64,000 bases of DNA, from the NCBI RefSeq assembly GCF_009914755.1, contig NC_060926.1, one strand, 5' to 3'. The position numbers and the translations under genes were made by a program. This document shows positions 5,957 to 24,119 of this stretch, in pieces. Source of the stretch: the human T2T-CHM13v2.0 reference genome, Homo sapiens. The notes under the pieces are model-generated. The model was given only the letters and a program-made list of their open reading frames with translations, ran no database searches and was not told the DNA's origin. Numbering within the stretch: position 1 is the first letter of the stretch; the number at the start of each line of letters is the position of its first letter.

Positions 5957-6169
5957 ACTAGTATGAGAGACAATAAGAATTCTAGAATTGTCAGATGTGC
6001 TCCTTTTTTCATTCCACCGTTACATATTGCTGAAAGCCTTTGCTATGTTCTTTGAAATTGCTGCTCATGGTTACATGGTGAACCCCAATATCCTAGTTTC
6101 CTTCAGTAGCCAATCATGACCGTACTAGCTTATTTCAAACCTTTTGGACATCTGTTTTAGGAGGAAGGA

Positions 6170-6330
6170 CATTGAACTTGGAAGATCTGCATGTTAGCCC
6201 AGGTTTTCCATAACCTACTTGTGTGACCTTGGGCAAATCCTTTCATGACTCTGGGCTGCAACTGCATCTGCATAAAGTGAAGGGTTGGGTTAGATAATCT
6301 GAAGTGCCTTCGGTTCTGAAAGGTTTTAAT
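6170..6330 (+). mobile_element. MIR SINE fragment
   Basis: tgtgtgaccttgggcaaatcc...ctctgggc...catctgcataaagtga (MIR core). Confidence 0.65.
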
Positions 6331-7089
6331 TCATTTCTCTCTGACTCACCTCTTTAAAAATCTGTTCAATTGTTGTCAATTCTATATGCAATTTGGCAAG
6401 AGACACCTCAAACATACTAATAAAGTACAAATTGAGTTTAAAAACATTGACGTTAATTTAAAAATTATCATTCAGAGGATTTTTAAGTAGCCCAACTGAA
6501 GTTAGAAAAACAGATTAATTGCTGCTTAACAGAATCTAAATTAGTTTTAAACTCTTGTTTGTAAGAACCCGGCTCAGAAATCGAGGAAACAAAGTCTCGT
6601 TGGCATAATAACAAAGGAATATACCTGGACCATCTTGGGAAGCAGAGTGAGCCAATAATTTGGCCATAATCAGGATGATGAGGAACAGAAAACCTGCGGA
6701 CTTAAAATGAAAGTAGTATCTATATCAATGACTCTACCTCTAAAAGGCCAAACCACATGGATGACAGATGAAAAAGCAAGCAAGTCATAAGCTTTTTCTC
6801 CCACATAGCTAAATACTTGGATATTTAGAGATATAGAGCTTACAAATAATTGGCTGAAATTTCATTTTTTTTCCAGTAGCTTCGACATAAGAAAGATAAG
6901 GCTGACTTATCCCTCTTAGATATGGAGACAACAGGCACCTCCAAATCTAAGAGGTTTCAATGATGGATATTCCCTATTTTCTCTTTCCTCAGCTATCAGT
7001 AGGTCCTGAAGGCAGTCTATTGGTCAATGGTGATAACTGTGAATCAAATGCCAAACTAAAAAAAGCATTGCAATCCTGTTGAAGGAGAA

Positions 7090-7280
7090 AGAAACTTACT
7101 AAAAACCTACTGTATGTCAGGCATACATTAACTCTAATCCTCAGAATGCCTTGCAGGGTCAGCATTGTCATTCCCATTTTCAGATGAAGAAACTGAGTCT
7201 TTGAGATGACTTACCCAAATTTACTTAACTCCTAATGGGAGCCTGAATCTTTCTGGTTCCTGTGTCCACACTCTTTCCAA
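7090..7280 (-). mobile_element. MIR SINE fragment
   Basis: attcccattttcagatgaagaaactgag (MIR core, reverse orientation). Confidence 0.7.
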
Positions 7281-8399
7281 TGAGCACTCTTTCATGTCCA
7301 AACTCTTTGAAGTAAGGGTCTATACTAAGAGACCTTTAGGTTAGCTAAGGGTGGTTCCAGGGTTAGAATTGTTATATGGCCAACCTCTGGTCAAGACACA
7401 GTTGAAAGTTTGTAAAGTTTGGGCAACTTGTGTTTGGTTCTTCTTTTTTTCTCTCTCTCTTTCCCCTTTCTTCATTCTTTGCCCACTTGAAGATCAAACT
7501 CTACTCCTGGCATCAGTATCTCCAGACTGCTTTCTAGATGCTCATGAGTTCCATAGCACCATATCTTATCAGAACAGTTCTCATGGACTCCTTCCTGACT
7601 TACTTGTCCCAAATTTCATTTTCTTAAGACTCTGCTCTCTGCTGGGTGGTGATGTGTGGTCATGGCTTTGCAGACACAGCAGCCTTCTGCTGGGTTAGTT
7701 AACTAGCCTTCCAAGAGACCAGACATTTTAACTGAGATAAAAATCCACCCAAGAGCATTAGAGAGAGCTTGGAGTAATGCTGCAGATATCAGGCACTAGG
7801 GTCTTGAGGATTAAGTAGCAAGGTCACCTCTTTAACAGGGCTATCAACATTTTAATGGGGATTAAAGCCCTGAGCTCAAGTGGTAAAACTGATAAGACAT
7901 TTCAGGATAGTGATTTTAAGAAGGGCAATAAAAGAACAACTAGGCCTTTCTGGGTCTCTTAAAATTTATCCTCTACTAGACCAAATTCTTCCTGATGATA
8001 AACCAATTTTTGATCAAGACAGTAAATGTCTGGGTGCATATGTCTAAGTTGGCTTAATTGGAACACACAAAAAAGGGAACTTTAATGTTTCAGTAATAAA
8101 GAATTCCAGCAGGACCAAAATAGCAACAACTATTTGTTAGTTAGACTAGGCTCCATGTGATCCCAGCCTCTGCATGATAAAGATATCAATGATTTCATTG
8201 TACTCAAAGAGTTTCTATTAATTAATCAATCATCCAATGCTTTCTGAGCACTTGCTGTGTCCAAGGCCTTGTGCTGGGGTGGAGATAAAGGGTCTTGCTA
8301 ACATACGAAGGGCTTAAAGTAATTGAATATATTCACAAAACCATGTAATTTAATGTGAGGTTTTGCAGCAGGACATGGAATTGATATATGTATTATATA

Positions 8400-8990
8400 C
8401 TCATTTATTAGTTTATTCATTTGACAAAATTTATATGAAGGCAGAATATTCCAGGTACCATGCTAGACCTTGGGAGATATCACTGAGAAACAGAGGCAGT
8501 CTGAACTCCAAGGGCCAATATTTTGATAAAGAACACAGGTACAGTATGATGCTTCCAGTAAAATGGGATTAGGACTATGAAAAATCAGTTATCCCGGCAA
8601 GTTTTACCATGAAAGCACACAGGTCGATGGCTAGACCTTGTCTTGAGGTGATAACAAAAGCATTCTGGAGGAGGAGATGCCCAAGGGAGACCTGGTGGAT
8701 AAGGAGTGAGCCAGGCCAAATGTGGAGGGGAGGGGGCAAGAAGGAAGGAGGGAACAGCATGTACAAGGACTGGAAACAAGAGAGGCTGGCCAAGCGTGGG
8801 ACAGTCAATAGCTCAGTATGGTAAGGAGTTAGAATTTAAGACATGCAAATTGTGGAGGATGTAAGTGGAGAGGGAAAGAAAGGCTGATTCATGAAGATAG
8901 TTGAATTCATGCCAGGGTGTTTAGATGTTATTTTGGGGACAATGGCAAATCACAGATGAATTTTAACTATGGCAGCCATTTCAATCATTA
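8400..8990 (-). mobile_element. L2 LINE fragment
   Basis: tcatttattagtttattcatttgacaaaatttat...ccaggtaccatgctag...agggaacagcatgtacaaggactgga. Confidence 0.6.
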
Positions 8991-11900
8991 TAATGTGGTA
9001 TATATGGGAAAACAAAGTAATTTTGCTTCTCTGGAAAACATAGTAGGCTAACAGAAATGCCTGAAGCTAATAACCAAACTATCTTGAAGATTTTGACTTA
9101 TCTGTGGTGGTAATTGTGGCATGAAGTGTTCAGAAGTGTTTTTTGTTCTTTCCATGGATCTCTCTTTAGTGAGATTCCTTAGGAAATAAATAAAAGACAT
9201 TTTTGAATAAGAAGTTAGTAAAAGTCATAAAGGACTAGAGTTAGAGTAGATATTGTGCAGCTGTGTCTGGCTGAAGCCAGAAAGTGAAAATTAAGCAGCT
9301 GACACATATCTCCTTATAACTTTCATTGAGCAGACAACCTCCCCTCACCCCCACCACTCCTGTCTTACTCTATGTACATTTTTTAATGTGAAAACGATTA
9401 AAAAATGTTCTAAAGTTAATAAAATATACAACTTGACCTGGTTAATCTGAACCAGTTTGCAAACTCCCTTTATATTTGGATAAAAAAATAAACCTTCAGA
9501 TTAACAAACTCTTGGCAAATTCCCTGCCTCTCATGTTAGTGAATTCTTTACTAGTTACATTTCCGGCTCCCCAGACATGGGGATGAATTAAGCCTGGAAA
9601 AACCAGGCAGGGCTGTAATTACATTAAGCATTTTTTTTTTTTTTGCAATAAGAAAAAGTGTGTCAGAGCATAAAGATATCCTTAAGGTGACATTTGCTTT
9701 GACCTGCCAAGTTTTGGACTATGCCCCAGGTTCTTGGATCCAATAATAGAGAACATTTAGCCAAAGACACTTTCTACCTTTCTGATCATTACAGATTTTT
9801 TCATTAATGTAAGTGATAATGCTCCTGGCTAGAAAAATTGAAGGGTAGAGGTGGGTGTTTCAGAGAAAGCTGGAAGAACCTGAGTTGACCCAAGTTTTCA
9901 GACTCCAGCTTTAAAGTTGCTTGAGAAACCAGGGTCTGGTGAACAAGTGAGGGAAAGTGCATTAGGGAAAGAGTTGTCATCCTCAAATTGGAGAGCAGTC
10001 AGATGTCCCTCTTATTTCCTCGCTAACATCCTTCCAAATTTTCCCCATGACTTAACTTTTTCCAGAGGCCTTTCCTGACGAATCTACTTCCATCTTATTT
10101 ATTTTCATAGGGTTATTCCAATTGGAACGATACAATATTGCTTTCAACTTGGTTTATATTGCTACTTAGGTTTTGTTTTTCTTTTTCTATGTTGGCTCCG
10201 CATCTTCTGCCTTGCTCTTGGCACTGCTCAATGCTATCTATACAATATGTGCTTAATACTTTGTTGAGGGCATTATGAAAGAACTTAATGCTCAGAAAGA
10301 GAAAATGTAGAAAGCCAGCACCCAACCACCTTGCAGGAAATTTTCCCTGCATAATCACATTTATTACTCTCATAAAATATAACACTATCTTTATTACTAT
10401 TGTCAGTAAAAGAAAGCCTCTAATGTATACCTTTCCTACCACACCTCACACACTTAACTATTAAGGGAATTCTAAATAGAGGCATGGAAAGACATGGAAA
10501 AGGCCAAATTCTTCCAGTGGGAGCCAAATGACCTGGAGTGTGGAAGTTTGATTCTGAACTTAAAGTAGTCTGGGAAAGCATAAACCTTGATATCTGAAAT
10601 GTGACCCAGTGGCCCCTCCAGTGTTTTGAAATGGAGTCCTTGTTTTAAAATCTTCCCCTAGTCCTTCTTTGAGGAAAAGTAGTCTGAAGCTTACTTTCAA
10701 AGCCCTTAAGTGTAAAAATAAACAAGCATTCGGTCAATAGGGCCCCTGATGCCTTGCTATACCACAACACATTTTTGAGTCATAAATCATGAATCTGACA
10801 GGTCTATGATGATGCATTGTGTTAATACATCATAATGACAATACTGACAATGTATTAGTGCAATATATCCTGAAAGCCTATCTCTTTAGAATTCTGTGTT
10901 TATAGATAGCAAAGGAAGGATTTGAGGTGGTGAAACTGAGAAAGAGAGAGGCACATGGGAGGGTCAAGAATGACGATCATCTTTTTTTTCTGACAAAGCA
11001 AGAGCCAGAAAGGGAAATCAAATTTCCATCTCTTGGGCACTAATGCCTTCTGTTTCTCAGTAGTTGTGTCATGTATGCAACTCCTGGAGGTGTATACTCT
11101 ACTGAATCTAGGTAATACAACTAGGTGTTGGCAGAGCCAGACTGGATGCAGACTTCTGAGTTTCAGCCACACTTCCTAAGACCTCCAAGCTTTAGGATGA
11201 ATGAAATATATCCTAGGTACATGAAACTCTGTTCTAGATGAACCCATTGACCAAATGTTTTGGTTATGTTTGCACATGCTGGTGTGTGCTAATGTTTACA
11301 GTCCTTAGCAATGAGTGGCCTTTTCTTCCTAGGCTTCTGCTAAATGATGGAGTTTGATGCAGAGCCTAGGAATGGTAATGCAATCATTTCATTTGTTGGG
11401 CATTCACTGTTAGAATAGTTTGGGCCCAGTGTTTATTACACCTGGCCCATCAGACCAAGCTAAGTGTTAATCACATATCTGCTTCTTTTGCAAACCAATT
11501 GATCAGGGCTCTTTGCTTTTTTTTCAGGAGAATATTTGACAATGATAAAAACAGTCCTTAAGTTTAGCTTATGGTCTTGCCTATAAAATAAATGAATAAT
11601 ATGGCTATTGTGCCATCTTTGCAATGGAAACAACTGGAAAAATTGCATGCTGTTTGTGAAAGAAACCTCCTGTATATCATACCTATCAAATTTTCAATTG
11701 TCTGTCACTTCCAGTTAATTCATAATTGGCTTTGACATTCTTCATTTAATTCATTGCAATTCAATTTTAAGACCTCCAAAAACAAACAACAATGAACATA
11801 CAAACAAAAAACAAAGGAAAATAAAGAAAGAAGTTAAGTAGAGCGACAAAAGTTATTCATTTAGAAGTGCAATGATCATACTGAGGGAGAGAAGGAAATT

Positions 11901-13709
11901 CAGTGGAATTGACATGTCTATGATTAGGAGATAGGCTGAGACTTATTTTTGTATCACTGAAGAGTAAACTAAAGTTTAAATTAGATTATGCAATGGCTGG
12001 TTATTTATAGGCACACATATTGAAGTAAATCTGTATATAAGGACAAGCATCTTACTTTAAAATTCAAATTACAAATAAGTTTACTGAAATACACAAATAA
12101 GTACATTCTTGAAATTAGCAAAATTGCTTTTCTTCTTCAACCAATTCTGTAATTCAGATTTTGCCAATGATGGTAAGTGTCTACATGGTATAAGCGAAAG
12201 TTTGATGCATATGGAAGTCAAGCAAGAAAGTAGGCAGTTCTTACCTGTTAGCATTTTGACACTATACTGTCATATTTTGTGAGTGTATATTTTTCTACAT
12301 AGAGCCTATTTCTATGGACTTGCAAATAGTCTGTTTCTTCATAGACTTGCTATACAGATGTGGGTAAAGATTTTTTACATCTTCCATACTATATCTGTAT
12401 TTCCAAAGTGTGGACCCTTGATGCCTGTCTATTGGCGATGTCGGTGTTTGCTGATATAATCCATTTCTGATGTCTTGACTTCCTCACCGTCCCCACCTCC
12501 AAAATTGAGATTTGCAATGTTTTGAGAACATTCAATGAAAATTAATAATAGATGCCTTTATGGAGATAAACAGTTTTCAGGACCAGATTATATACTTAAA
12601 AATACTCACAGATATTTTCTATTCAGCCAGTTTCTACCAGTAAGTGTGGCAGCCTGGGGTAGGAGGAACTTTATTACCTCCCACTGAGTGCTAGGGGACC
12701 ATTAGGTAAATAACTGACTCTCCCTCAATGGCTGTCTTGCAACCAGATGGAGTGAGTATCTACAGAGGGACATTTACTCCTAGAGCTCACCAACTATGGC
12801 TCACTCCCGCCTGAGCAGGCTCCACTGACCATCAACTTTGATGGTTATCGCTGTCCAAAGAATTTTAAGGTTGCTGTAGAGAATAATGACAAAACCCATG
12901 GGTCCTGTGGCAAGACTCCAGAACTTTGAAGGTCCTCAGCTCTCTGACCAGTGGGCTTGTGGTAATATTTGTTGCTCTTGGCCTTGGAGTCAATTTGTTC
13001 CACACCCAAATGAGCATCTGGAGAAAGTATGACTTCTAAGAACTGTTCCCAGAGGCCATATCTGTCTCTCCATTACCAGAATAAAAATAGCCCTGGCTAC
13101 TCCAACATACCCAGCTAATGAAAAGCTGTCTTATTTAACCCAGCCAGCTTACACCAATGACCTATAGGTCGACTTTCTCCTGCCTGCTTACATTTCCCAC
13201 CAAATCGAGAGCATAGAGGACTGAAACATCTGTCTAAAAAATTCTCCTTGTTGTCATTCCCCAGGATTTATACATCATTTTGCTCTTATAAATCTACAAG
13301 GTATTAATGCATGAGACCCCGGGGAGGATACATGGACAGACATGGAGAAAAGCTTTCCTTTCCTGCTCCAGGGCCACCGACCTCTTAGGGCCTCACTTTC
13401 CTTGTTTGTACAATGAAAATTTGTATTCAATGAAAATTAAGGCATGTCAAGCTATATCTTATGCTTAGGGTATATCATTATAACATTTAATAGTAAAGTG
13501 AAAAAACATGTACTATACTATCACAATTACAGCTTTGAGGCCTACAGGTTTTTCTGCAGTTGGTGCAGGTTAAACCTGCACTCTATAGTGAGATAACAAA
13601 TCCTTTTTTTTCCAACCACTATCAGAAACATATTCCAAGGCACTCAGACCCTAAGCAGGTCCCCTCACACCAAATTTCCCCAAGCTGTCCAAACCGAAGT
13701 TTGTACAAT

Positions 13710-13892
13710 GCTGCAGGGAAATTAGGATGGGGAAAATGATTCAAAATAGTGAGACACGCGAGAGGAGGAAAATCACATGTCAATGTATAGCAGCCGGCGT
13801 TCATTGTTTCACCTGAATTTAGAGTTGGGATGGGAGAGAAAATGGTGATTAAGGGTTTGTTCTTTGTGTGTGTTCTGAGGTGGTGGTATGGG
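13710..13892 (+). repeat. Left arm of 183-bp inverted repeat
   Basis: Hand alignment to the reverse complement of 15034-15216 gives 175/183 identity with no gaps; the ORF track shows the same peptide on opposite strands (HTKNKPLIT.FSPIPTLNSGETMNA). Confidence 0.97.
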
Positions 13893-15033
13893 TTCTGAGG
13901 GGGTTCATCCATTTAGAATTGCTGTGGGACTGTTTGTTTCTTTTCACATGGCCACAGCCCACTCCTGCTTGGTCAATATTCTATGGTGTACTTCTTCATC
14001 AAATTGCCAGAATTCTAGTTAAGTCTTCTGTTTGGGGAAACTCAACCTGAAAATTTGTATTTGAACACTAAAACATGCCCATGTTTCTGTTTTATATCCT
14101 AAGACATGAACTCAAATAGGAAGTTCCTTTTCCTGGGCTATTGAAATAGTTCTTTAGTATATTACTGTAGTGGGGAGAGAAAAAATTGTATCTTAAAACC
14201 CAAATCGCCTCCATCAGAGGGTTGGTTCTTGACCTCAGGATTTTTGCTTTGATGAGAGACTCAATGAGGGGGCCTCAGAGATATTTGGAAGGGGAGAATA
14301 CAAGGAAATTAAGAAGAATATGGAGTTTCTGGAGCAATCTTGTGAGTCAACAGAAAAAGAGAAATGAGAGAAGAAAGAGAAGCAATTGGATAATAACAGG
14401 CTAGGGTGAAGGGGCTAGTGTTGTGCCGTTGTGGAGACTTCTAGGAACAGGGACTGCCCCCATTGGTGGTCTGTGTTGCTGTGACATAAACACCCTGCTG
14501 CTCTCTGCATGCCACACCTCAGCTGGAATGAAGTCTCTGTGCACACAAGTGTATTGTGTTAATACAATGATTGTAGAGCTGGAGGAAGCAGCTGAGTTTT
14601 CCATTTAGGTGCTCTTTGGGCACAGCAGGCACAGAATGGCAAGATCACCCAAACCCTGAACTGATCTAGGAAAAGGAAGAAGTTCAATCCAGAGGTAACT
14701 ATGAGAACACCACTTCTGAGAATTTGCAAGAATCTCAGGGACTCTTTCAGGCTCCCATAAAGCATGGAATGTGAAGCGTGTGACTATCTTATCTCCATTG
14801 TAAAGGGCAGGGAGACCCCAGCTGACATATGGGTTCCATTATGGGGGTAGACTTTTGTTACAGCAGCATTGGGAATTAAGCTAATCTCTTTGTATCAGAC
14901 TTTATCTGTTTGTGGTAATATTTTGTGGAATAAGATAAGCCCTGGAATATATTCAGATGTGAGTGATAAGTGATTTTATAAGTCAGTTTTGCTCAACATG
15001 GACTATTTGACTTCTAATGCAAATCTCCTTCCT

Positions 15034-15216
15034 CCCATACCACCCCCTCAGAACACACACAAAGAACAAACCCCTAATCACCACTTTCTCTCCCATCCCA
15101 ACTCTAAATTCAGGTGAAACAATGAACGCCAGCTGCTATAAATTGACATGTGATTTTCCTTCTCTCGCGTGGCTCACCATTTTGAATCATTTTCCCCATC
15201 CTAATTTCCCTGCAGC
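15034..15216 (-). repeat. Right arm of 183-bp inverted repeat
   Basis: Reverse complement of 13710-13892 with 8 substitutions. Confidence 0.97.
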
Positions 15217-15804
15217 GGGTTCTGTTGTCTGCTTTCAGCCCTTGGCTATCCTCATGCCCAGCCCCTCCTCTGAGAAAAGGTGGCTTCACTTCCTTTTACA
15301 TCTTCAATGCACCACAGTGACCTTAGAGGCTGATGCAGGTGCTTTGGGAGACCACTTCATCAAGTGCTGCAGACAGCAAGGGCTGGGGTGAGCCATCAGC
15401 CCCTCAAAACTATGGTCTAGAACTGCCCTGGACCAGATTAGTAATGGTGACCTGGAGGTGAAAGGCTCTGTATTCCATTACCAGTCTCCTGAGTAATCTA
15501 CCTAATTCAGTATCCTTTCATTTAATTGAAACATTATTTTCTCTCTGTTAGCCAGGGCACTCAAGGTGGTATAGCAGTGTTAATCTTTCAGCTGATTTCC
15601 ATCTTTGCAGAATTACCTTTCTAGCAATTAGACCCACTGGTATAAATTTGCTTTGCTCCTTTCTGGAGTTCAACATTACAATGGAAATCTCCAAGCTCAA
15701 CACGTTTTCCTCCAGGCTGACCCAGGGCAGGTATTAATTAACTGGGGTGTTGTGAGAAGGTTGAGCTGAAAAAGCCAAGTAGGAGAATGCTACTCTTGGG
15801 ATAT

Positions 15805-15950
15805 CTCTGCGGCCAGCAGACGGACTAAAGAGGGTGAGACCCGGATGAAGAAGAATCGCATTTAAAGTTACGTGAAATGACCGCACTATTAGTGAACCGG
15901 GGAGCAGAACAATGGTTATTCTGGAAGTACATCAGTACGTTCAGGTAACA
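15805..15950. promoter_or_regulatory. CpG-retaining, motif-rich candidate enhancer/promoter
   Basis: 8 CpGs in ~130 bp in otherwise CpG-depleted DNA; ETS (ccggatg), bZIP (ttacgtga) and SOX (aacaatgg) motifs. Confidence 0.4.
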
Positions 15951-16136
15951 AATCTTCTGCATCCTTTGTTGAAATCTGAATGTAGCTAATTTGTGAACAT
16001 TCTCTAAGACACACAGGGTTACAGTGATAAACTGTCTCAGCTTGTTGGGGACTGAGAGATTCTGGGACCAGAGAGGCTTTCAGAGTAAAATTGTCAAAGT
16101 CCTGCAAAAACTAGGATGTGTTGGTCCTCCTGCTAG

Positions 16137-16399
<263 letters not shown>

Positions 16400-16764
16400 C
16401 ATGTCAGTTGATTTCTCACGTCTTGCCAAATGGCAACAATAAGTTGATACTCACCCCTCATTTTCTGTCATTTGACTTTTTCTGAAATCTGGTGTCTGCT
16501 CCTACAAACACAGAGAAATTAACCCTGGATTTTCAAGGTGGACAGGATTGCTAATTGTCAAATCCAGTGACCTTCTCTTAGAACTTGCCCTCTCTCTAGC
16601 ATTGAACACAGCTGAATACATCTCTTTTTTGAACTCTCTTCATTTGATTTCTAGAGCTGTGAAATTTTCTTACTCTTCTTTCTAACCATGTCTCTTTCTC
16701 CATTGCTTGAATTTCCACCGGCGGGCATGCCTGTTCTTTCTCTGCAGTTATTCCTATAGACGCT

Positions 16765-17300
16765 GCTGGTAATCTGCCTATTGCCCCTCAGTCCTGAATT
16801 TTATGCTCTGCTTTATGCTGCCAAGACTGGGAGTTAGCAAATTCTTACTTCCTTGGGTTCACTCGCCAGCTGGTTTGCCATTTGGCTCTGTCAGTAGAGG
16901 CACCTGGGGAAGGTCAGAAGGCAGGAGAAACTAGAAACCTCCTTCTCCTGACTCCAGCAGTGTTGGCAGTCACTCACAGGGACAGGTAGTTGCCATGGCA
17001 CAACAGAATGTAGGGGATTCTAGTCTCCAGAAGCCTAGGCAGGGGCGTGTCTTCCCAGAAGCTCCAGCCCTTGTCAATGGTGAGTCTGGAACTAAATTTT
17101 GATAGCTTTTCCAATAGCACAGAAGCCAGTGAAGCTGAAGGCTCCAGCTCAGGCACATTCAATGCATGCATCCTCTGGCTATTGGCAACCCCATCTGTTG
17201 CTCTTCTAGCCCTTTTGATATTGTCATAACAAATTCTGTGCCCTTAAGTGTGAAATATACAGAGTGGCTGGTGGTTTCCTGACTGAGTCTTGACTGATCT
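16765..17300 (+). mobile_element. ERVL solo LTR (LTR33-like)
   Basis: gccagctggtttgcc...gctctgtcagtagaggcac...tgaaatatacagagtgg...tttcctgactgagtcttgactgat. Confidence 0.6.
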
Positions 17301-17321
17301 ACTGTTGGGCTTTCAATTCTT

Positions 17322-17604
17322 TTTTTTGTTGGTTTGTTTGTTTTTGGGGGGTGGGGATGGAGCCTCACTCTGTAGCCCAGGATGGAGTGCAGTGGCACAA
17401 TCTCGGCTCACTGCAACCTCTGCCTCCCAGGTTCAAGTGATTCTCCTGTCTCCACCTCCTGAGTAACCGGGATACAGACACACGCCACCACGCCTGGCTA
17501 ATTTTTGTATTTTTAGTAGGGATGGGGTTTCGCCATGTTGTCCAAGCTGGTCTCAAACTCCTGACCACAAGTGATTCACCCGTCTCAGCTTCCCAAAATG
17601 GGAT
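17322..17604 (-). mobile_element. AluS, 5'-truncated, with TSD tttcaattctt
   Basis: Alu body; tttcaattctt occurs at 17311 and again at 17605. Confidence 0.95.
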
Positions 17605-18039
17605 TTCAATTCTTAATGATATATAAAAGACTCGACCTCGGGCCTGCATCAAAAACCACTGTCAGGACCTATCCACATGGTTGTAATGCTAGTTTATACT
17701 ATACTAGTCGTCATCCTACAGCTCTTGATCTTCCCTCCCTATTACTAAAACAGCGACTAGTGATGAAGCTATCATTCTTCTATTTATCGTGGACACTTGC
17801 CACTCCCTTGCTTCCAAAACCTAATCAACCACCAATTCTTGTCTTTTTATTAGAAAAACAAAATTATTTCACATGGGTCATTTTGTTTCCTTTCCTTGGT
17901 TTTGGCCTCTGTAACGTCAAGTCTGAACAAAAGCAATATCTTTCTCATTTGTTAAGAAAATACTATTAATACCTGCTGTCTTGTAAAGTAGTGGCTACCC
18001 TGGAGAAAGTACTTATTTACATGATTTCCAGACAAATTG

Positions 18040-18190
18040 CCTTGACTCTAGGATACGTGCTGTCTCCTCCTGCAGATGAGGTGACTGAAGCTTAGAGGTT
18101 AACTTTTCAAAAGCCACAGGGGTGTTAAGTGGAAGAGCCTGGATCTGAACCTAGGTCCTTGTCATTCCATAATGTATGTGTTTTCCTTCA
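18040..18190 (-). mobile_element. MIR SINE fragment
   Basis: cagatgaggtgactgaagcttagagg...aagtggaagagcctggatctgaacctaggtc. Confidence 0.7.
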
Positions 18191-18344
18191 GTCCCTCCCT
18201 TTTTAGTCTCTTCAACATCAAATCTGTCACATAACCAGCCTGGTTAATATTCCTAAAGTTTACTTTTAAATCACCTGACTCATAGACAGGATTCAGTAAA
18301 TACTTACTGAATGAACTGAACATACTATTCCTCTAATTAAACAC

Positions 18345-19835
18345 TTTTACAATAAAGTTTTAACAGCTTGATTGAGGTACAAAAGTCATATAATAAACTA
18401 CACGTATTCAAAGTGTACAGTATAATAGTTTTTGACACATACAAACCTGTGAAATTAATCATTACCATAATCAAGATAATGAACCTCTCCATCATTTCCT
18501 AAAGGTTCCTCAAGCCCTTTCTCATTTCTCACTCCCACCTCTCTCCACACCTACCCCCTACCTTATCCCCCAGTGATTCCCAGGAAAGCACTGATCTGCT
18601 TTCTTTCACATAGATTTATTTGCATTTTCTAGAATTTTATATAAATGGAATCAGACAGTGTGTAAGATTTTTTTCTCTAGCTTCTCTCACTCAGTGTACC
18701 TATTTTGAAACTCATCCATGTTATTTCAAGTATTGCTATTTTTATTGTTAGTGATAGCCCATTATATAAACATTAATTTGTTGATTCATTCACTTGATGG
18801 TAGCCACTTAAGTTTCTAGTTTTTAGCTATTACAAATAAAGCTTCCATTCAGCATTCACTTATTAAGTCTTTGTCTAGTCATATGGTTTTTTTCTCTTGG
18901 GTGAATGTATAGAAATGGCATGGCTGGGTCATGCGGTAAGTGTATGTTTAACTTTTTAAGAAACTGTCAAACTGTTTTCAAGTGGTTGTATCATTTTACA
19001 TGCCCACCAGCAGTGTATGAAAATTCCTGTTGTTCCACATTCTTGTCAACACTTGGTATGAACGGTCTTTTCAATATTAGCCATTGTAAAAGGTATGGTA
19101 GTATCACATTATGGTTTAAATTTTCAGCTTCCTAATGACTAATAATGTTGAGCATCTTCATGTGCTTTTTGTCATCCATACATCTTTGCTGCAGTGTCTG
19201 TTCAAATATTTTGCCCACTAAAATATTAAGATGTTTGAATTTGAGATTTCTCATTATATTTTAGATTTCAATTCTTTATCAGATATGTGATTTGCAAATA
19301 TTTTCTCCTGGTCCATGTCTTGTCTTTTCATCATTGCCTTCTGAAGAGCAGAATTTCTTACTTCTCATGAAGTCCAGTTTATCAAATTTTTGTTTAGTGC
19401 ATCATGTTTTGGTATTATATCTAGGAAAGTTTGACCTAACACAAATTCACAAAGATTTTCTCCTGTTCGTTTTCCTAGAGGTTTTAGAGTGCCAGGTTTT
19501 ACATTTAGCTCTGTAATTCATTTCGAGTTAACTTTTGTATACGGTTGTATTGGTTGAGGTTTAGTTTTTGCCAATGAATCGCCCATCTTTTTAACACCAT
19601 TTGTTGAAAAGATTGTCCTTGCTCTATTTAATTGTCTTTGCACCTTTGTTGAAAATCAATTGACCATATTTATATGGATCTGTTTCTTCTCAGTTATGTT
19701 TCAATGATCTATTTGCCCATGTTGATGTTAATACCACACTCTAATTTTTAGATCAATCTTGATGTTAGGTACTGTAAGTCCTCCAACTTTATCTTTTTGA
19801 AAGTTTTCTGGTCTATCTTAGGTCTTTTGTATTTC
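18345..19835 (-). mobile_element. Old L1M (L1MC-like) 3' UTR and ORF2 3' part
   Basis: cagcttgattgaggta...ttctagaattttatataaatggaatca...tttaactttttaagaaactgtcaaactgttttc...caccatttgttgaaaaga; heavily diverged. Confidence 0.9.
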
Positions 19836-23301
<3,466 letters not shown>

Positions 23302-23428
23302 AAATGTTAAGAGGAAACTGCTCCAGAATTCCATTCACATTTGCATACAATACAATGTGCATAATCTCTGAAGGTGCACAACAGTGATACTGGCCACCTT
23401 GCAAAGATGATACACTTCACTTTAAAGT

Positions 23429-23518
23429 CTTTTCTTGCCTTATTAAACTGGCCAGAACCTCTAATATTATATTGAGTAGAAGTGTTGAGAGTAGGCATTC
23501 TTGTCTTTTTCCTGATAA
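23429..23518 (-). mobile_element. Old L1M ORF2 fragment (probable continuation of 18345-19835)
   Basis: tcttgccttattaaactggccagaacctctaata...gagtagaagtgttgagagtaggcattcttgtc aligns as a diverged copy of 21851-21930. Confidence 0.8.
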
Positions 23519-24119
23519 GTCTTTCAACTGAATAAAATAATAGCTGCATGGGTCAATCTCTCTTTCCAAAGATCACATTAATCCTGCATTCGGTCACAGC
23601 ACAGCCAAACCATTGAAATAATGTTGTCTTTTCACATCACAAATCATCCGAATCCTTTATAGGGATATGAATTATTTAAACTGATGATCTCTTTTCAGTA
23701 CAACCACTGGACAAGAGGTAAATAATATGCATACTATAAGAAGAAATTGTATAGGAAGTTTCCAGCCAGAAAGGGCTCTCAAATATCTCATTTATTTCAT
23801 TTTTCTTTACAATTTCTAAAAATTCCAATATTTTTATGTTATTTAAAAAAGTGGATACAATGTAGAATAGCAAGATAAAAATATAGAACTAAAAGTTAAA
23901 AATGGGAATTAAATAGCATATGTCATTTAAGTTTAATTTTGATAATGACCCAAATTACCTTAAAGGTAAGCAGTTGTCAATAGATGCTTCTTACAGGCAG
24001 AATTAAAAAAAGAATTCTCTAAGTGTATAGACTGAAGGCAAAAATCAAGTTGACTAGAGCTGGAATTAAGGTTGAGAGTGTTATCCAGAGGAAGGCAGCA
24101 CCACCAGTGATGAATGATC

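What the first reader, a model, noticed from the sequence alone, without database searches (positions are those of the whole stretch)
13710..15216. 183-bp, 95.6%-identical inverted repeat of apparently unique sequence around a 1.14-kb spacer
Seen: arms 13710-13892 and 15034-15216 align without gaps, with 8 mismatches and sharp ends. They resemble no Alu, L1, MER or LTR I recognise, and both keep CpGs (cacgcga, ggcgtt). Established: such repeats can form long intramolecular dsRNA (ADAR substrate, back-splicing aid), mediate recurrent inversion by non-allelic homologous recombination, and be homogenised by gene conversion. Inference: this is either a primate-age inverted duplication or an older, conversion-maintained invertible or hairpin module. 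On a plus-strand transcript 4 of the 8 mismatches are A-C pairs, which ADAR favours. On a minus-strand transcript those 4 become G-U wobbles.
Basis: partly seen in the sequence, partly recalled or inferred. Interest (0 to 1): 0.8.

Follow-up and report, generated by a model that had tools for sequence, protein, structure and literature searches.

The report
Old 183-bp local inverted duplication
A 183-base stretch of otherwise unique human DNA was copied once, backwards, about 1.1 kb from its source some tens of millions of years ago; this is a common kind of small rearrangement scar, and nothing found here shows that it does anything.

Summary
Arms 13710-13892 and 15034-15216 are reverse complements, 175 of 183 identical, with no gaps, sharp ends and a 1141-nt spacer.

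- **Copy number:** the arm has two copies in the whole T2T genome, namely the two arms. The surrounding 3.4 kb is otherwise unique. Controls with an Alu piece and an old diverged repeat gave 4269 and 981 first-look candidates.
- **Not a transposon or RNA gene:** no target-site duplication, no poly-A, no Pfam hit and no Rfam hit.
- **Known kind:** it fits a described class of human structural variant, a stretch under 1 kb copied in inverted orientation within 5 kb of its source (PMC4617611, PMC5829575).
- **Age:** divergence K=0.045 gives roughly 20 Myr (8-45) if neutral.
- **Mismatches:** they are spread as chance would spread them, and the longest perfect run is 46 nt. That gives no sign of conversion and poor substrate for recurrent inversion.
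- **Junction footprint:** a 13-nt re-copy at the left inner junction mildly favours the left arm as a templated copy.
- **Transcription:** RefSeq LINC01799 starts 695 nt downstream, so no annotated transcript spans both arms.

Verdict: an ordinary, probably neutral rearrangement relic.

The parts
13710..13892 (.). Left arm of the inverted repeat (183 nt). It is probably the derived, templated copy.
   Evidence: 175 of 183 identical to the reverse complement of 15034-15216; one of only two genomic copies.
13892..13904 (+). 13-nt 'stutter' (GTTCTGAGGGGGT) directly after the left arm. It repeats arm sequence 20 nt out of register and matches the right arm's allele exactly.
   Evidence: 13892-13904 equals the reverse complement of 15042-15054; only 0.3% of random sites in this window have a 12-mer or longer of the preceding 183 nt repeated in the next 40 nt. 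TRF did not call it.
13893..15033 (.). Spacer of 1141 nt. It is unique sequence and CpG-poor (3 CpGs, o/e 0.06).
   Evidence: No other genomic copy. No Pfam family in its open frames. Two weak short tandem repeats at 14352-14382 and 14909-14932.
15034..15216 (.). Right arm of the inverted repeat (183 nt). It is probably the source copy. Its outer end lies 695 nt upstream of LINC01799 exon 1 (15911).
   Evidence: The exon position comes from the hub's RefSeq table.
15042..15054 (-). Segment of the right arm that is re-copied as the stutter at 13892-13904.

Best explanation
This is the relic of one local rearrangement in the primate lineage. A 183-bp piece of unique, non-transposon DNA was copied in reverse orientation and placed about 1.1 kb from its source. 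The event was probably a replication or repair error that used the nearby sequence as template (template switching, or synthesis-dependent filling of a break).

I favour the right arm (15034-15216) as source. On that reading the left arm plus the 12-13 nt re-copied after it (13710-13904) is the templated insertion, because a second short copy from the same template is what a low-processivity, multi-switch event leaves behind.

Since then the two arms have diverged by ordinary point mutation, 8 differences in roughly 20 Myr. I infer no function: it is an intergenic scar of the 'non-tandem opposite-strand duplication' / 'Inverted Dup' class.

Shown here: the repeat, its copy number of two, the absence of transposon and RNA-family marks, and the junction stutter. 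Inferred: the mechanism, which arm is the copy, the age and the neutrality.
For: - **Copy number.** The arm finds only the two arms in the 3.1-Gb genome (2 first-look candidates, 2 matches). A 3401-nt query around it finds only itself, the arm cross-matches and two short hits at 15424-15493 (3 candidates, 5 matches). The search does see repeats: an Alu piece gave 4269 candidates, and a 183-nt old diverged repeat gave 981 candidates with hits at 78-85% identity.
- **No retro- or DNA-transposon marks.** The flanks are unrelated, with no target-site duplication and no poly-A.
[quoted passage not shown] In one human genome, 21 of 166 supported local rearrangements were non-tandem opposite-strand duplications, and 6 more came with a deletion (PMC5829575, Table 2 passage).
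- **Neutral look.** There are 5 transitions and 3 transversions. No indel is seen where about 1 is expected (P = 0.37-0.45). Mismatch spacing is random.
- **Direction.** The 13-nt stutter at the left inner junction is rare at random sites (0.3%) and carries the right arm's base at the one position where the arms differ there. Insertions made of two or more copies of nearby sequence are a described pattern (191 sites, PMC4617611).
Against: - No outgroup genome could be consulted. The single-copy ancestral state, the age and the direction of copying are therefore untested.
- The junctions show essentially no microhomology in either direction (my reading). PMC4617611 reports that microhomology is typical at templated complex deletions.
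- The stutter could instead be an older 20-nt quasi-tandem repeat lying across an unbroken junction. That would make the left arm the original.
- The arms are CpG-richer than their surroundings: o/e 0.62 and 0.45 against 0.14 for the window, and only 2.9% of 183-nt windows hold 4 or more CpGs. At an assumed 15-fold CpG rate, retention of 7 of 8 CpGs is marginally unexpected (P = 0.04). This may hint at hypomethylation or constraint.
- Absence of function is inferred from absence of evidence. Expression, editing and conservation data were not available.
Confidence: 0.6

Rival explanations
1. A small inversion with a staggered break. The 1.14-kb spacer was inverted by breakage and end joining. 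One of the two breaks was staggered by 183 nt, and filling in the overhangs left that stretch duplicated in inverted orientation at both ends of the inverted piece. This is still a neutral one-off scar, but here the spacer is inverted relative to the ancestor and neither arm is an 'insertion'.
For: - The anatomy is exactly what the model predicts: an inverted duplication of unique sequence bounding a segment, with blunt junctions and no microhomology.
- In Drosophila, 17 of 29 fixed inversions carry such inverted duplications of non-repetitive sequence. Their median size is 321 bp and their range is 46 bp to about 1.9 kb. For 12 inversions only one breakpoint region is duplicated (PMC1885836, passages).
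- If the left arm-spacer junction is ancestral, the 13-nt repeat across it is simply an old local quasi-tandem repeat.
Against: - The documented cases are large chromosomal inversions in flies. I found no human micro-inversion example in the passages I read.
- The human surveys describe the common local class as duplication plus insertion, not inversion with a flanking duplication (PMC4617611; PMC5829575).
- The model needs the 13-nt repeat to sit at the breakpoint by coincidence (0.3-1.7% of random sites).
Confidence: 0.2
2. A functional long RNA hairpin. The locus is transcribed through both arms, for example from an unannotated start upstream of LINC01799 or on the minus strand. The 183-bp stem would then be an ADAR, Dicer or dsRNA-sensor substrate, or would otherwise regulate the neighbouring lncRNA.
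For: - If transcribed, the stem forms. The minimum-free-energy fold of the 1507-nt element pairs 176 of 183 arm positions on plus and 179 of 183 on minus. Arm duplex energies are -326 and -338 kcal/mol.
- That is stronger than the median 'non-repetitive edited' predicted dsRNA (144 bp, -184.8 kcal/mol) in a genome-wide catalogue (PMC11838218, Table 1 passage).
- The arms lie 0.7 kb upstream of a lncRNA start and are CpG-richer than background.
Against: - No RefSeq transcript covers either arm (hub table).
- No Rfam family matches at E of 1 or less anywhere in 12500-16100. The 5 weak hits all lie in the Alu at 16171-16408.
- About 497,000 non-repetitive inverted repeats are predicted genome-wide, and only 4,597 of them are edited on both arms (PMC11838218). 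Foldability alone is therefore weak evidence.
- The A.C mismatches are the trivial result of transitions.
- The 1.1-kb loop is long.
Confidence: 0.07
3. An older inverted repeat kept similar by gene conversion, and/or a recurrently inverting segment through non-allelic homologous recombination between the arms.
For: - The arms are close (1.1 kb) and 95.6% identical.
- NAHR events with under 50 bp of matching sequence have been seen between repeats about 5 kb apart at the alpha-globin locus (PMC2583991, passage). The 46-nt and 38-nt perfect runs are therefore not an absolute bar.
Against: - The longest perfect run is 46 nt, against quoted processing segments of 134-232 bp (mitotic) and 300-500 bp (human meiosis).
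- The rows I saw of the table of validated IR-mediated human polymorphic inversions list arms of 2.7-13.3 kb (PMC3961182, Table 1 passage).
- Mismatch spacing shows no conversion-like tracts (P = 0.73).
- The ends are sharp with no decayed homology beyond them, as expected for a young duplication rather than the conserved core of an old one.
Confidence: 0.06
4. A relic non-autonomous DNA transposon, about 1.5 kb long with 183-bp terminal inverted repeats.
For: The overall shape, long terminal inverted repeats around an internal region, resembles such elements. The arms begin with GCTGCAGGG and end with its reverse complement.
Against: - There is no target-site duplication of any length at the ends.
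- No other copy of arm or spacer exists in the genome, although the search finds 78-85%-identical members of old families.
- No transposase-like frame was found. I scanned 9 of the 25 open frames of 40 aa or more, namely all those of 65 aa or more. None reached a Pfam cut-off, and the best was 12.4 bits against a cut-off of 27.
- From my own recall, human DNA transposons are much older than 4.4% arm divergence implies.
Confidence: 0.02
5. An assembly artefact, such as a fold-back chimera, in T2T-CHM13.
For: Inverted duplications can be created by chimeric long reads.
Against: - Artefactual fold-backs give identical arms with little or no spacer. Here the arms differ at 8 sites with a mutation-like spectrum and are separated by 1141 nt of unique sequence.
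Confidence: 0.01

Closest known systems
'Inverted Dup' structural variants of the 1000 Genomes SV map (PMC4617611), also called non-tandem opposite-strand duplications (Frith & Khan, PMC5829575)
   Same: A stretch under 1 kb (here 183 bp) of non-transposon sequence is present twice, in opposite orientation, within 5 kb (here 1.14 kb). There are no retrotransposition marks. The proposed origin is a DNA replication or template-switch error.
   Different: Those are polymorphisms seen by comparing living human genomes, so their arms are near-identical. This one has 4.4% arm divergence and is therefore old and presumably fixed. Its derived state could not be checked against an outgroup.
Inverted duplications at inversion breakpoints from staggered breaks (Ranz et al. 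2007, PMC1885836)
   Same: An inverted duplication of ancestrally unique sequence bounds a segment. The size lies within the reported range of 46 bp to 1.9 kb, and only one breakpoint region is duplicated.
   Different: Those bound megabase-scale inversions in Drosophila. Here the bounded segment is 1.1 kb in human, and its inversion is not shown.
Short template-switch mutations (four-point model, Loytynoja & Goldman 2017, PMC5453318)
   Same: [quoted passage not shown]
   Different: [quoted passage not shown] Its authors explicitly do not attempt long-range or multiple successive switches. Here the copy is 183 nt, lies 1.1 kb away and may involve a second switch.
Inverted Alu pairs and other long inverted repeats catalogued as potential dsRNA (dsRNAscan, PMC11838218; Lirex, PMC5414712)
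   Same: Two nearby reverse-complementary arms could form a long intramolecular duplex if co-transcribed.
   Different: It is not built from a dispersed repeat. It is more perfectly paired (96-98%) than the catalogue medians (75-88%), and it is not inside any annotated transcript.

Membership tests
Local inverted duplication ('Inverted Dup' / non-tandem opposite-strand duplication) | Duplicated stretch shorter than 1 kb | tested here: met
   183 nt. Criterion from PMC4617611, section 9.
Local inverted duplication ('Inverted Dup' / non-tandem opposite-strand duplication) | Second copy in opposite orientation within 5 kb of the first | tested here: met
   Reverse complement, with 1141 nt between the arms.
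Local inverted duplication ('Inverted Dup' / non-tandem opposite-strand duplication) | Not a dispersed repeat and not a retrocopy | tested here: met
   Only two genomic copies, with positive controls. No poly-A and no target-site duplication. Dfam/RepeatMasker was not available.
Local inverted duplication ('Inverted Dup' / non-tandem opposite-strand duplication) | Ancestral state has one copy only | not testable with these tools
   No other primate genome is held.
Inversion with staggered-break inverted duplication | Inverted duplication of unique sequence at both ends of a segment | tested here: met
   The size lies within 46 bp to 1.9 kb (PMC1885836).
Inversion with staggered-break inverted duplication | The bounded segment is inverted relative to the ancestor | not testable with these tools
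   An outgroup sequence is needed.
DNA transposon with terminal inverted repeats | Target-site duplication flanking the termini | tested here: not met
   The flanks share no direct repeat at the ends.
DNA transposon with terminal inverted repeats | Multiple related copies in the genome | tested here: not met
   None beyond the two arms. The control shows that 78-85%-identical family members are found.
DNA transposon with terminal inverted repeats | Transposase remnant, or a match to a known family | tested here: not met
   Of 25 open frames, 9 were scanned against Pfam and none reached a cut-off. Dfam was not available.
NAHR-competent inverted low-copy repeat (invertible segment) | Uninterrupted identity at least as long as the minimal efficient processing segment | tested here: not met
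   The longest run is 46 nt, against 134-232 bp (mitotic) and 300-500 bp (meiotic). Rare events under 50 bp are known for close repeats (PMC2583991).
NAHR-competent inverted low-copy repeat (invertible segment) | Both orientations of the spacer found among haplotypes or species | not testable with these tools
   No pangenome or ape assemblies are held.
Edited or structured long hairpin RNA | Both arms lie in one transcript | tested here: inconclusive
   The hub's RefSeq table shows no transcript over 13710-15216, and LINC01799 starts at 15911. Unannotated transcription could not be checked.
Edited or structured long hairpin RNA | A stable intramolecular duplex is predicted | tested here: met
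   176 and 179 of 183 arm pairs in the MFE fold. Arm duplex energies -326 and -338 kcal/mol.
Edited or structured long hairpin RNA | A-to-I editing clusters, small RNAs or covariation | not testable with these tools
   No editing, small-RNA or multi-species data are held. No Rfam family was found.

The most novel reading that the evidence does not exclude
The repeat is a lineage-specific, unique-sequence hairpin locus. An unannotated transcript upstream of, or antisense to, LINC01799 runs through both arms and folds into a 183-bp, 96-98% paired stem. That would be one of the rare non-Alu long duplexes in the human genome able to engage ADAR1, Dicer or MDA5. The mild CpG excess of the arms would then reflect promoter-proximal hypomethylation or constraint rather than chance.
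Probability: 0.06. Interest if true: 0.5.

Novelty: new member of a known kind. Interest (0 to 1): 0.15.

Why it matters
It matters little in itself. It is a clean, dated example of how replication or repair errors seed long inverted repeats from unique sequence. That process is discussed as a source of new RNA hairpins and of small 'inversion' calls in human variation maps.

The junction stutter gives a rare internal clue to the direction of copying, and that clue could be checked against ape and monkey assemblies. If the locus proved to be transcribed, it would be a strong non-Alu double-stranded RNA. There is no evidence for that here.

Tried and rejected
- **Dispersed-repeat origin: rejected.** Genome searches found only the two arms. 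One search, a 3.5-kb query that reached into the Alu at 16141-16200, was swamped by Alu hits (830 candidates, 40 scored). I repeated it without the Alu. Controls are.
- **Further homology by gapped or weaker matching.** blastn with word size 7, using 13210-15716 against the window, gave 10 rows. Only the self match and the two arm matches were significant, and the rest had E of 0.003 or more. There is no hidden extension of the repeat.
- **RNA family.** Rfam at E of 1 or less over 12500-16500 gave 5 weak hits, all in the Alu at 16171-16408 and none in the repeat.
- **Coding or transposase remnant.** There are 25 stop-free frames of 40 aa or more. All 9 of 65 aa or more were scanned against Pfam and none reached a cut-off. 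The 126-aa frame across the right arm (15011-15391) is probably chance.
- **Junction microhomology.** 8-mers shared among the four junction neighbourhoods (for example GGGTTCTG at 13890 and 15217) are at the level expected by chance for the roughly 64,000 comparisons made (my estimate). Only the 13-mer stands out. TRF did not call the 20-nt quasi-repeat.
- **Conversion tracts.** None are apparent.
- **Models built around the 13-mer.** I worked through a simple fold-back priming at the 12-nt complementarity and a micro-inversion between the two 12-mers. Neither reproduces the present junctions, by my reasoning.
- **Whether the site is a known polymorphic inversion or inverted duplication.** The tables of PMC4617611 sit in a zip file that cannot be read here. 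Its supplementary PDF has one irrelevant mention. Supplements of the bioRxiv dsRNA catalogue (PMC11838218) were not opened and may list this repeat.
- **Literature on the locus.** The only search was 'LINC01799', with 4 papers holding the term and 3 listed. By title and abstract start they are GWAS or expression-signature papers, and I did not open them. I cannot claim that the repeat is undescribed.
Full report
**Observation.** The repeat finder reports one inverted pair in 12500-16500 with arms 13710-13892 and 15034-15216, 183 nt long, 96% complementary and 1141 nt apart.

A base-by-base comparison gives 8 mismatches and no gaps. An alignment that includes the flanks shows identity stopping abruptly at both ends. 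Beyond the outer ends 9 of 39 flank positions match, and beyond the inner ends 12 of 59 match, which is what unrelated sequence gives.

Against the whole 3.1-Gb assembly the arm-to-arm match has E = 9e-78, so chance is excluded. It is the only inverted repeat of 40 nt or more in 6000-24000. It is also the only one of 60 nt or more, with arms up to 10 kb apart, in the whole 64-kb window.

**The mismatches.** There are five transitions and three transversions, one of them a CpG-to-TpG type change (13795 C against 15131 A). On a plus-strand RNA four mismatches are A.C or C.A and one is G.U, and on the minus strand the four become G.U.

Accordingly the minimum-free-energy fold of the 1507-nt element pairs 176 of 183 arm positions on plus and 179 of 183 on minus. 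The arm duplex energies are -326 and -338 kcal/mol. This pattern carries no information, however. Every transition between the arms of an inverted repeat must give A.C on one strand and G.U on the other.

**Is it a known repeat?** A search of the window's own genome (T2T-CHM13; the window is C2:66898001-66962000) with the left arm found two first-look candidates and two matches, namely the two arms.

A 3.5-kb query was swamped by the Alu at its right end (830 candidates, 40 scored). Repeated without the Alu (12700-16100), it gave 3 candidates and 5 matches. These were itself, the two arm cross-matches, and two short hits to chr1 and chr10 at window 15424-15493, which lies outside the repeat.

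The search does see repeats. An Alu piece from the window gave 4269 candidates. A 183-nt piece of an old, diverged, unmasked repeat (23400-23582) gave 981 candidates, with scored hits at 78-85% identity. So the arms do not belong to any family with recognisable copies.

Families more than about 25% diverged cannot be excluded without Dfam. That would not change the reading, because two copies at 95.6% identity among no others still mean a local duplication.

**Other identities tested.**
- Rfam at E of 1 or less finds nothing in the repeat. The 5 weak hits all lie in the Alu at 16171-16408.
- There are 25 stop-free frames of 40 aa or more over 13600-15320. I scanned the 9 of 65 aa or more against Pfam, and none reached a curated cut-off. 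The best was 12.4 bits against a cut-off of 27.
- There is no target-site duplication, no poly-A and no further homology by sensitive blastn.
- A DNA transposon with long terminal inverted repeats is therefore rejected on three defining features.
- An assembly fold-back is unlikely, because the arms differ at 8 sites and are separated by 1.1 kb of unique sequence.

**What kind of thing it is.** The anatomy matches a described and common class of human rearrangement. In the 1000 Genomes structural-variant map, 229 'inversion' sites were characterised with long reads or PCR. Only 20% were simple inversions, while 54% were inverted duplications. [quoted passage not shown]

A long-read survey of one human genome counted 21 non-tandem opposite-strand duplications, plus 6 with a deletion, among 166 supported local rearrangements (PMC5829575, Table 2 passage). 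The present repeat, 183 nt copied backwards 1141 nt away, is an old member of that class.

**Age.** The Jukes-Cantor distance between the arms is 0.045. With substitution rates of 1.0-1.2e-9 per site per year (recalled, not from a tool) this gives 19-22 Myr. The exact binomial interval on 8 of 183 (1.9-8.4%) widens that to about 8-45 Myr, and a pedigree-type rate of 0.5e-9 would double these figures. Gene conversion would make the true age greater.

**Signs of maintenance or activity.** None was found.
- The runs of identity between mismatches (38, 5, 10, 19, 9, 46, 9, 28, 11) look random. A longest run of at least 46 occurs in 73% of random placements.
- No indel is seen where about one is expected (P = 0.37-0.45).
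- One of eight CpG lineages is lost. At an assumed 5-, 10- or 15-fold CpG rate the probability of at most one loss is 0.50, 0.15 or 0.04, so CpG retention is at most marginal.
- The arms are nevertheless CpG-richer (o/e 0.62 and 0.45) than the window (0.14) and the spacer (0.06). Only 2.9% of 183-nt windows here hold 4 or more CpGs. I leave this as a mild, unexplained feature of the source sequence.

**Recombination.** The longest uninterrupted identity is 46 nt. A review quotes a 20-fold drop in mammalian intrachromosomal recombination when uninterrupted homology falls from 232 to 134 bp. It also quotes 300-500 bp for human meiotic NAHR. It records, too, rare events with under 50 bp between alpha-globin repeats 5 kb apart (PMC2583991, passages).

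The rows I saw of the table of validated human inversions mediated by inverted repeats list arms of 2.7-13.3 kb (PMC3961182, Table 1 passage). Recurrent inversion here is therefore unlikely but not impossible.

**Mechanism and direction.** One internal clue exists. The 13 nt that directly follow the left arm (13892-13904, GTTCTGAGGGGGT) are the exact reverse complement of 15042-15054 inside the right arm. In other words, the left inner junction repeats arm sequence 20 nt out of register.

Such a repeat of 12 nt or more follows only 0.3% of random 183-nt segments in this window. A 9-mer version follows 1.7%. The re-copied piece carries the right arm's base (G) at the one arm mismatch it covers (13881 T against 15045 C).

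The simplest reading is that the left arm and the stutter were synthesised together from the right arm, with the polymerase slipping back once before returning. Insertions built from two or more copies of nearby sequence are a described pattern (191 sites, PMC4617611).

There are two points against this. First, I see essentially no microhomology at the junctions. Second, the same 13-mer could be an older quasi-tandem repeat lying across an unbroken junction, which would make the left arm the original. The other short words shared among the junctions, 8-mers such as GGGTTCTG at 13890 and 15217, are at chance level for the number of comparisons made.

**The main mechanistic rival.** This is a small inversion with one staggered break. 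Fill-in of a 183-nt overhang followed by end joining leaves an inverted duplication at both ends of the inverted segment.

In Drosophila, 17 of 29 fixed inversions show this, with duplications of 46 bp to about 1.9 kb (median 321 bp). For 12 inversions the duplication comes from one breakpoint region only (PMC1885836, passages). Blunt junctions fit it well. It predicts that the spacer is inverted relative to outgroups, and the insertion model predicts that it is not.

The published short template-switch model explicitly leaves out long-range and multi-step switches (PMC5453318, passage). The present case works like that process but is not a member as defined.

**Function.** The repeat lies in an intergenic stretch. 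The right arm ends 695 nt upstream of LINC01799 exon 1 (hub RefSeq table), and no annotated transcript contains either arm.

If transcribed, it would form a very stable duplex. That duplex would be stronger than the medians for 'non-repetitive' predicted dsRNAs in a genome-wide catalogue. The same catalogue lists about 497,000 such non-repetitive inverted repeats, of which only 4,597 are edited on both arms (PMC11838218, passages).

Foldability alone is therefore not evidence of function. Cruciform extrusion with a 1.1-kb spacer is not expected, an inference from my own knowledge. An abstract seen only in a search listing states that distance and divergence reduce the instability caused by inverted repeats (PMC10164571).

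**Verdict.** The interpretation as a primate-age inverted duplication is supported, and the more exciting alternatives (a conversion-maintained, invertible or hairpin module) are not. It is a new instance of a known, common kind of rearrangement scar.

The decisive test is comparison with ape and monkey orthologues and with pangenome haplotypes, together with expression and editing tracks. None of these could be run here.

Noticed in passing
window 15424-15493: This is the only part of 12700-16100 with matches elsewhere in the genome: 70 nt at 80% identity to chr1, and 34 nt at 97% to chr10. It is probably a fragment of a low-copy or old repeat between the right arm and the LINC01799 start.
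   Followed up: no
window 15500-16250: CpG o/e rises to 0.32-0.42, against 0.14 for the window, just upstream of and over LINC01799 exon 1 (15911-15944). This suggests a weak CpG-enriched promoter region.
   Followed up: no
window 15011-15391 (+) and 13622-13912 (-): Stop-free frames of 126 and 96 codons run through the right and left arms in the same relative frame. Neither has a Pfam match, so they are probably chance.
   Followed up: partly
window 13563-13581: A short near-perfect palindrome of 19 nt (18 of 19 self-complementary) lies 130 nt upstream of the left arm. E = 0.13, so it is probably chance.
   Followed up: no
window 16158-16381 and 17361-17600: Two Alu-like elements lie in direct orientation, 82-83% identical and about 1.2 kb apart. 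They account for the weak SRP and mir-1285/3135/1268 Rfam hits.
   Followed up: no
window 21850-21933 and 23429-23512: An 84-nt direct match at 76% identity links the masked block (19819-23303) to unmasked sequence. The 183 nt at 23400-23582 has at least 981 diverged relatives genome-wide. An old dispersed repeat is therefore left unmasked in NCBI's file.
   Followed up: partly
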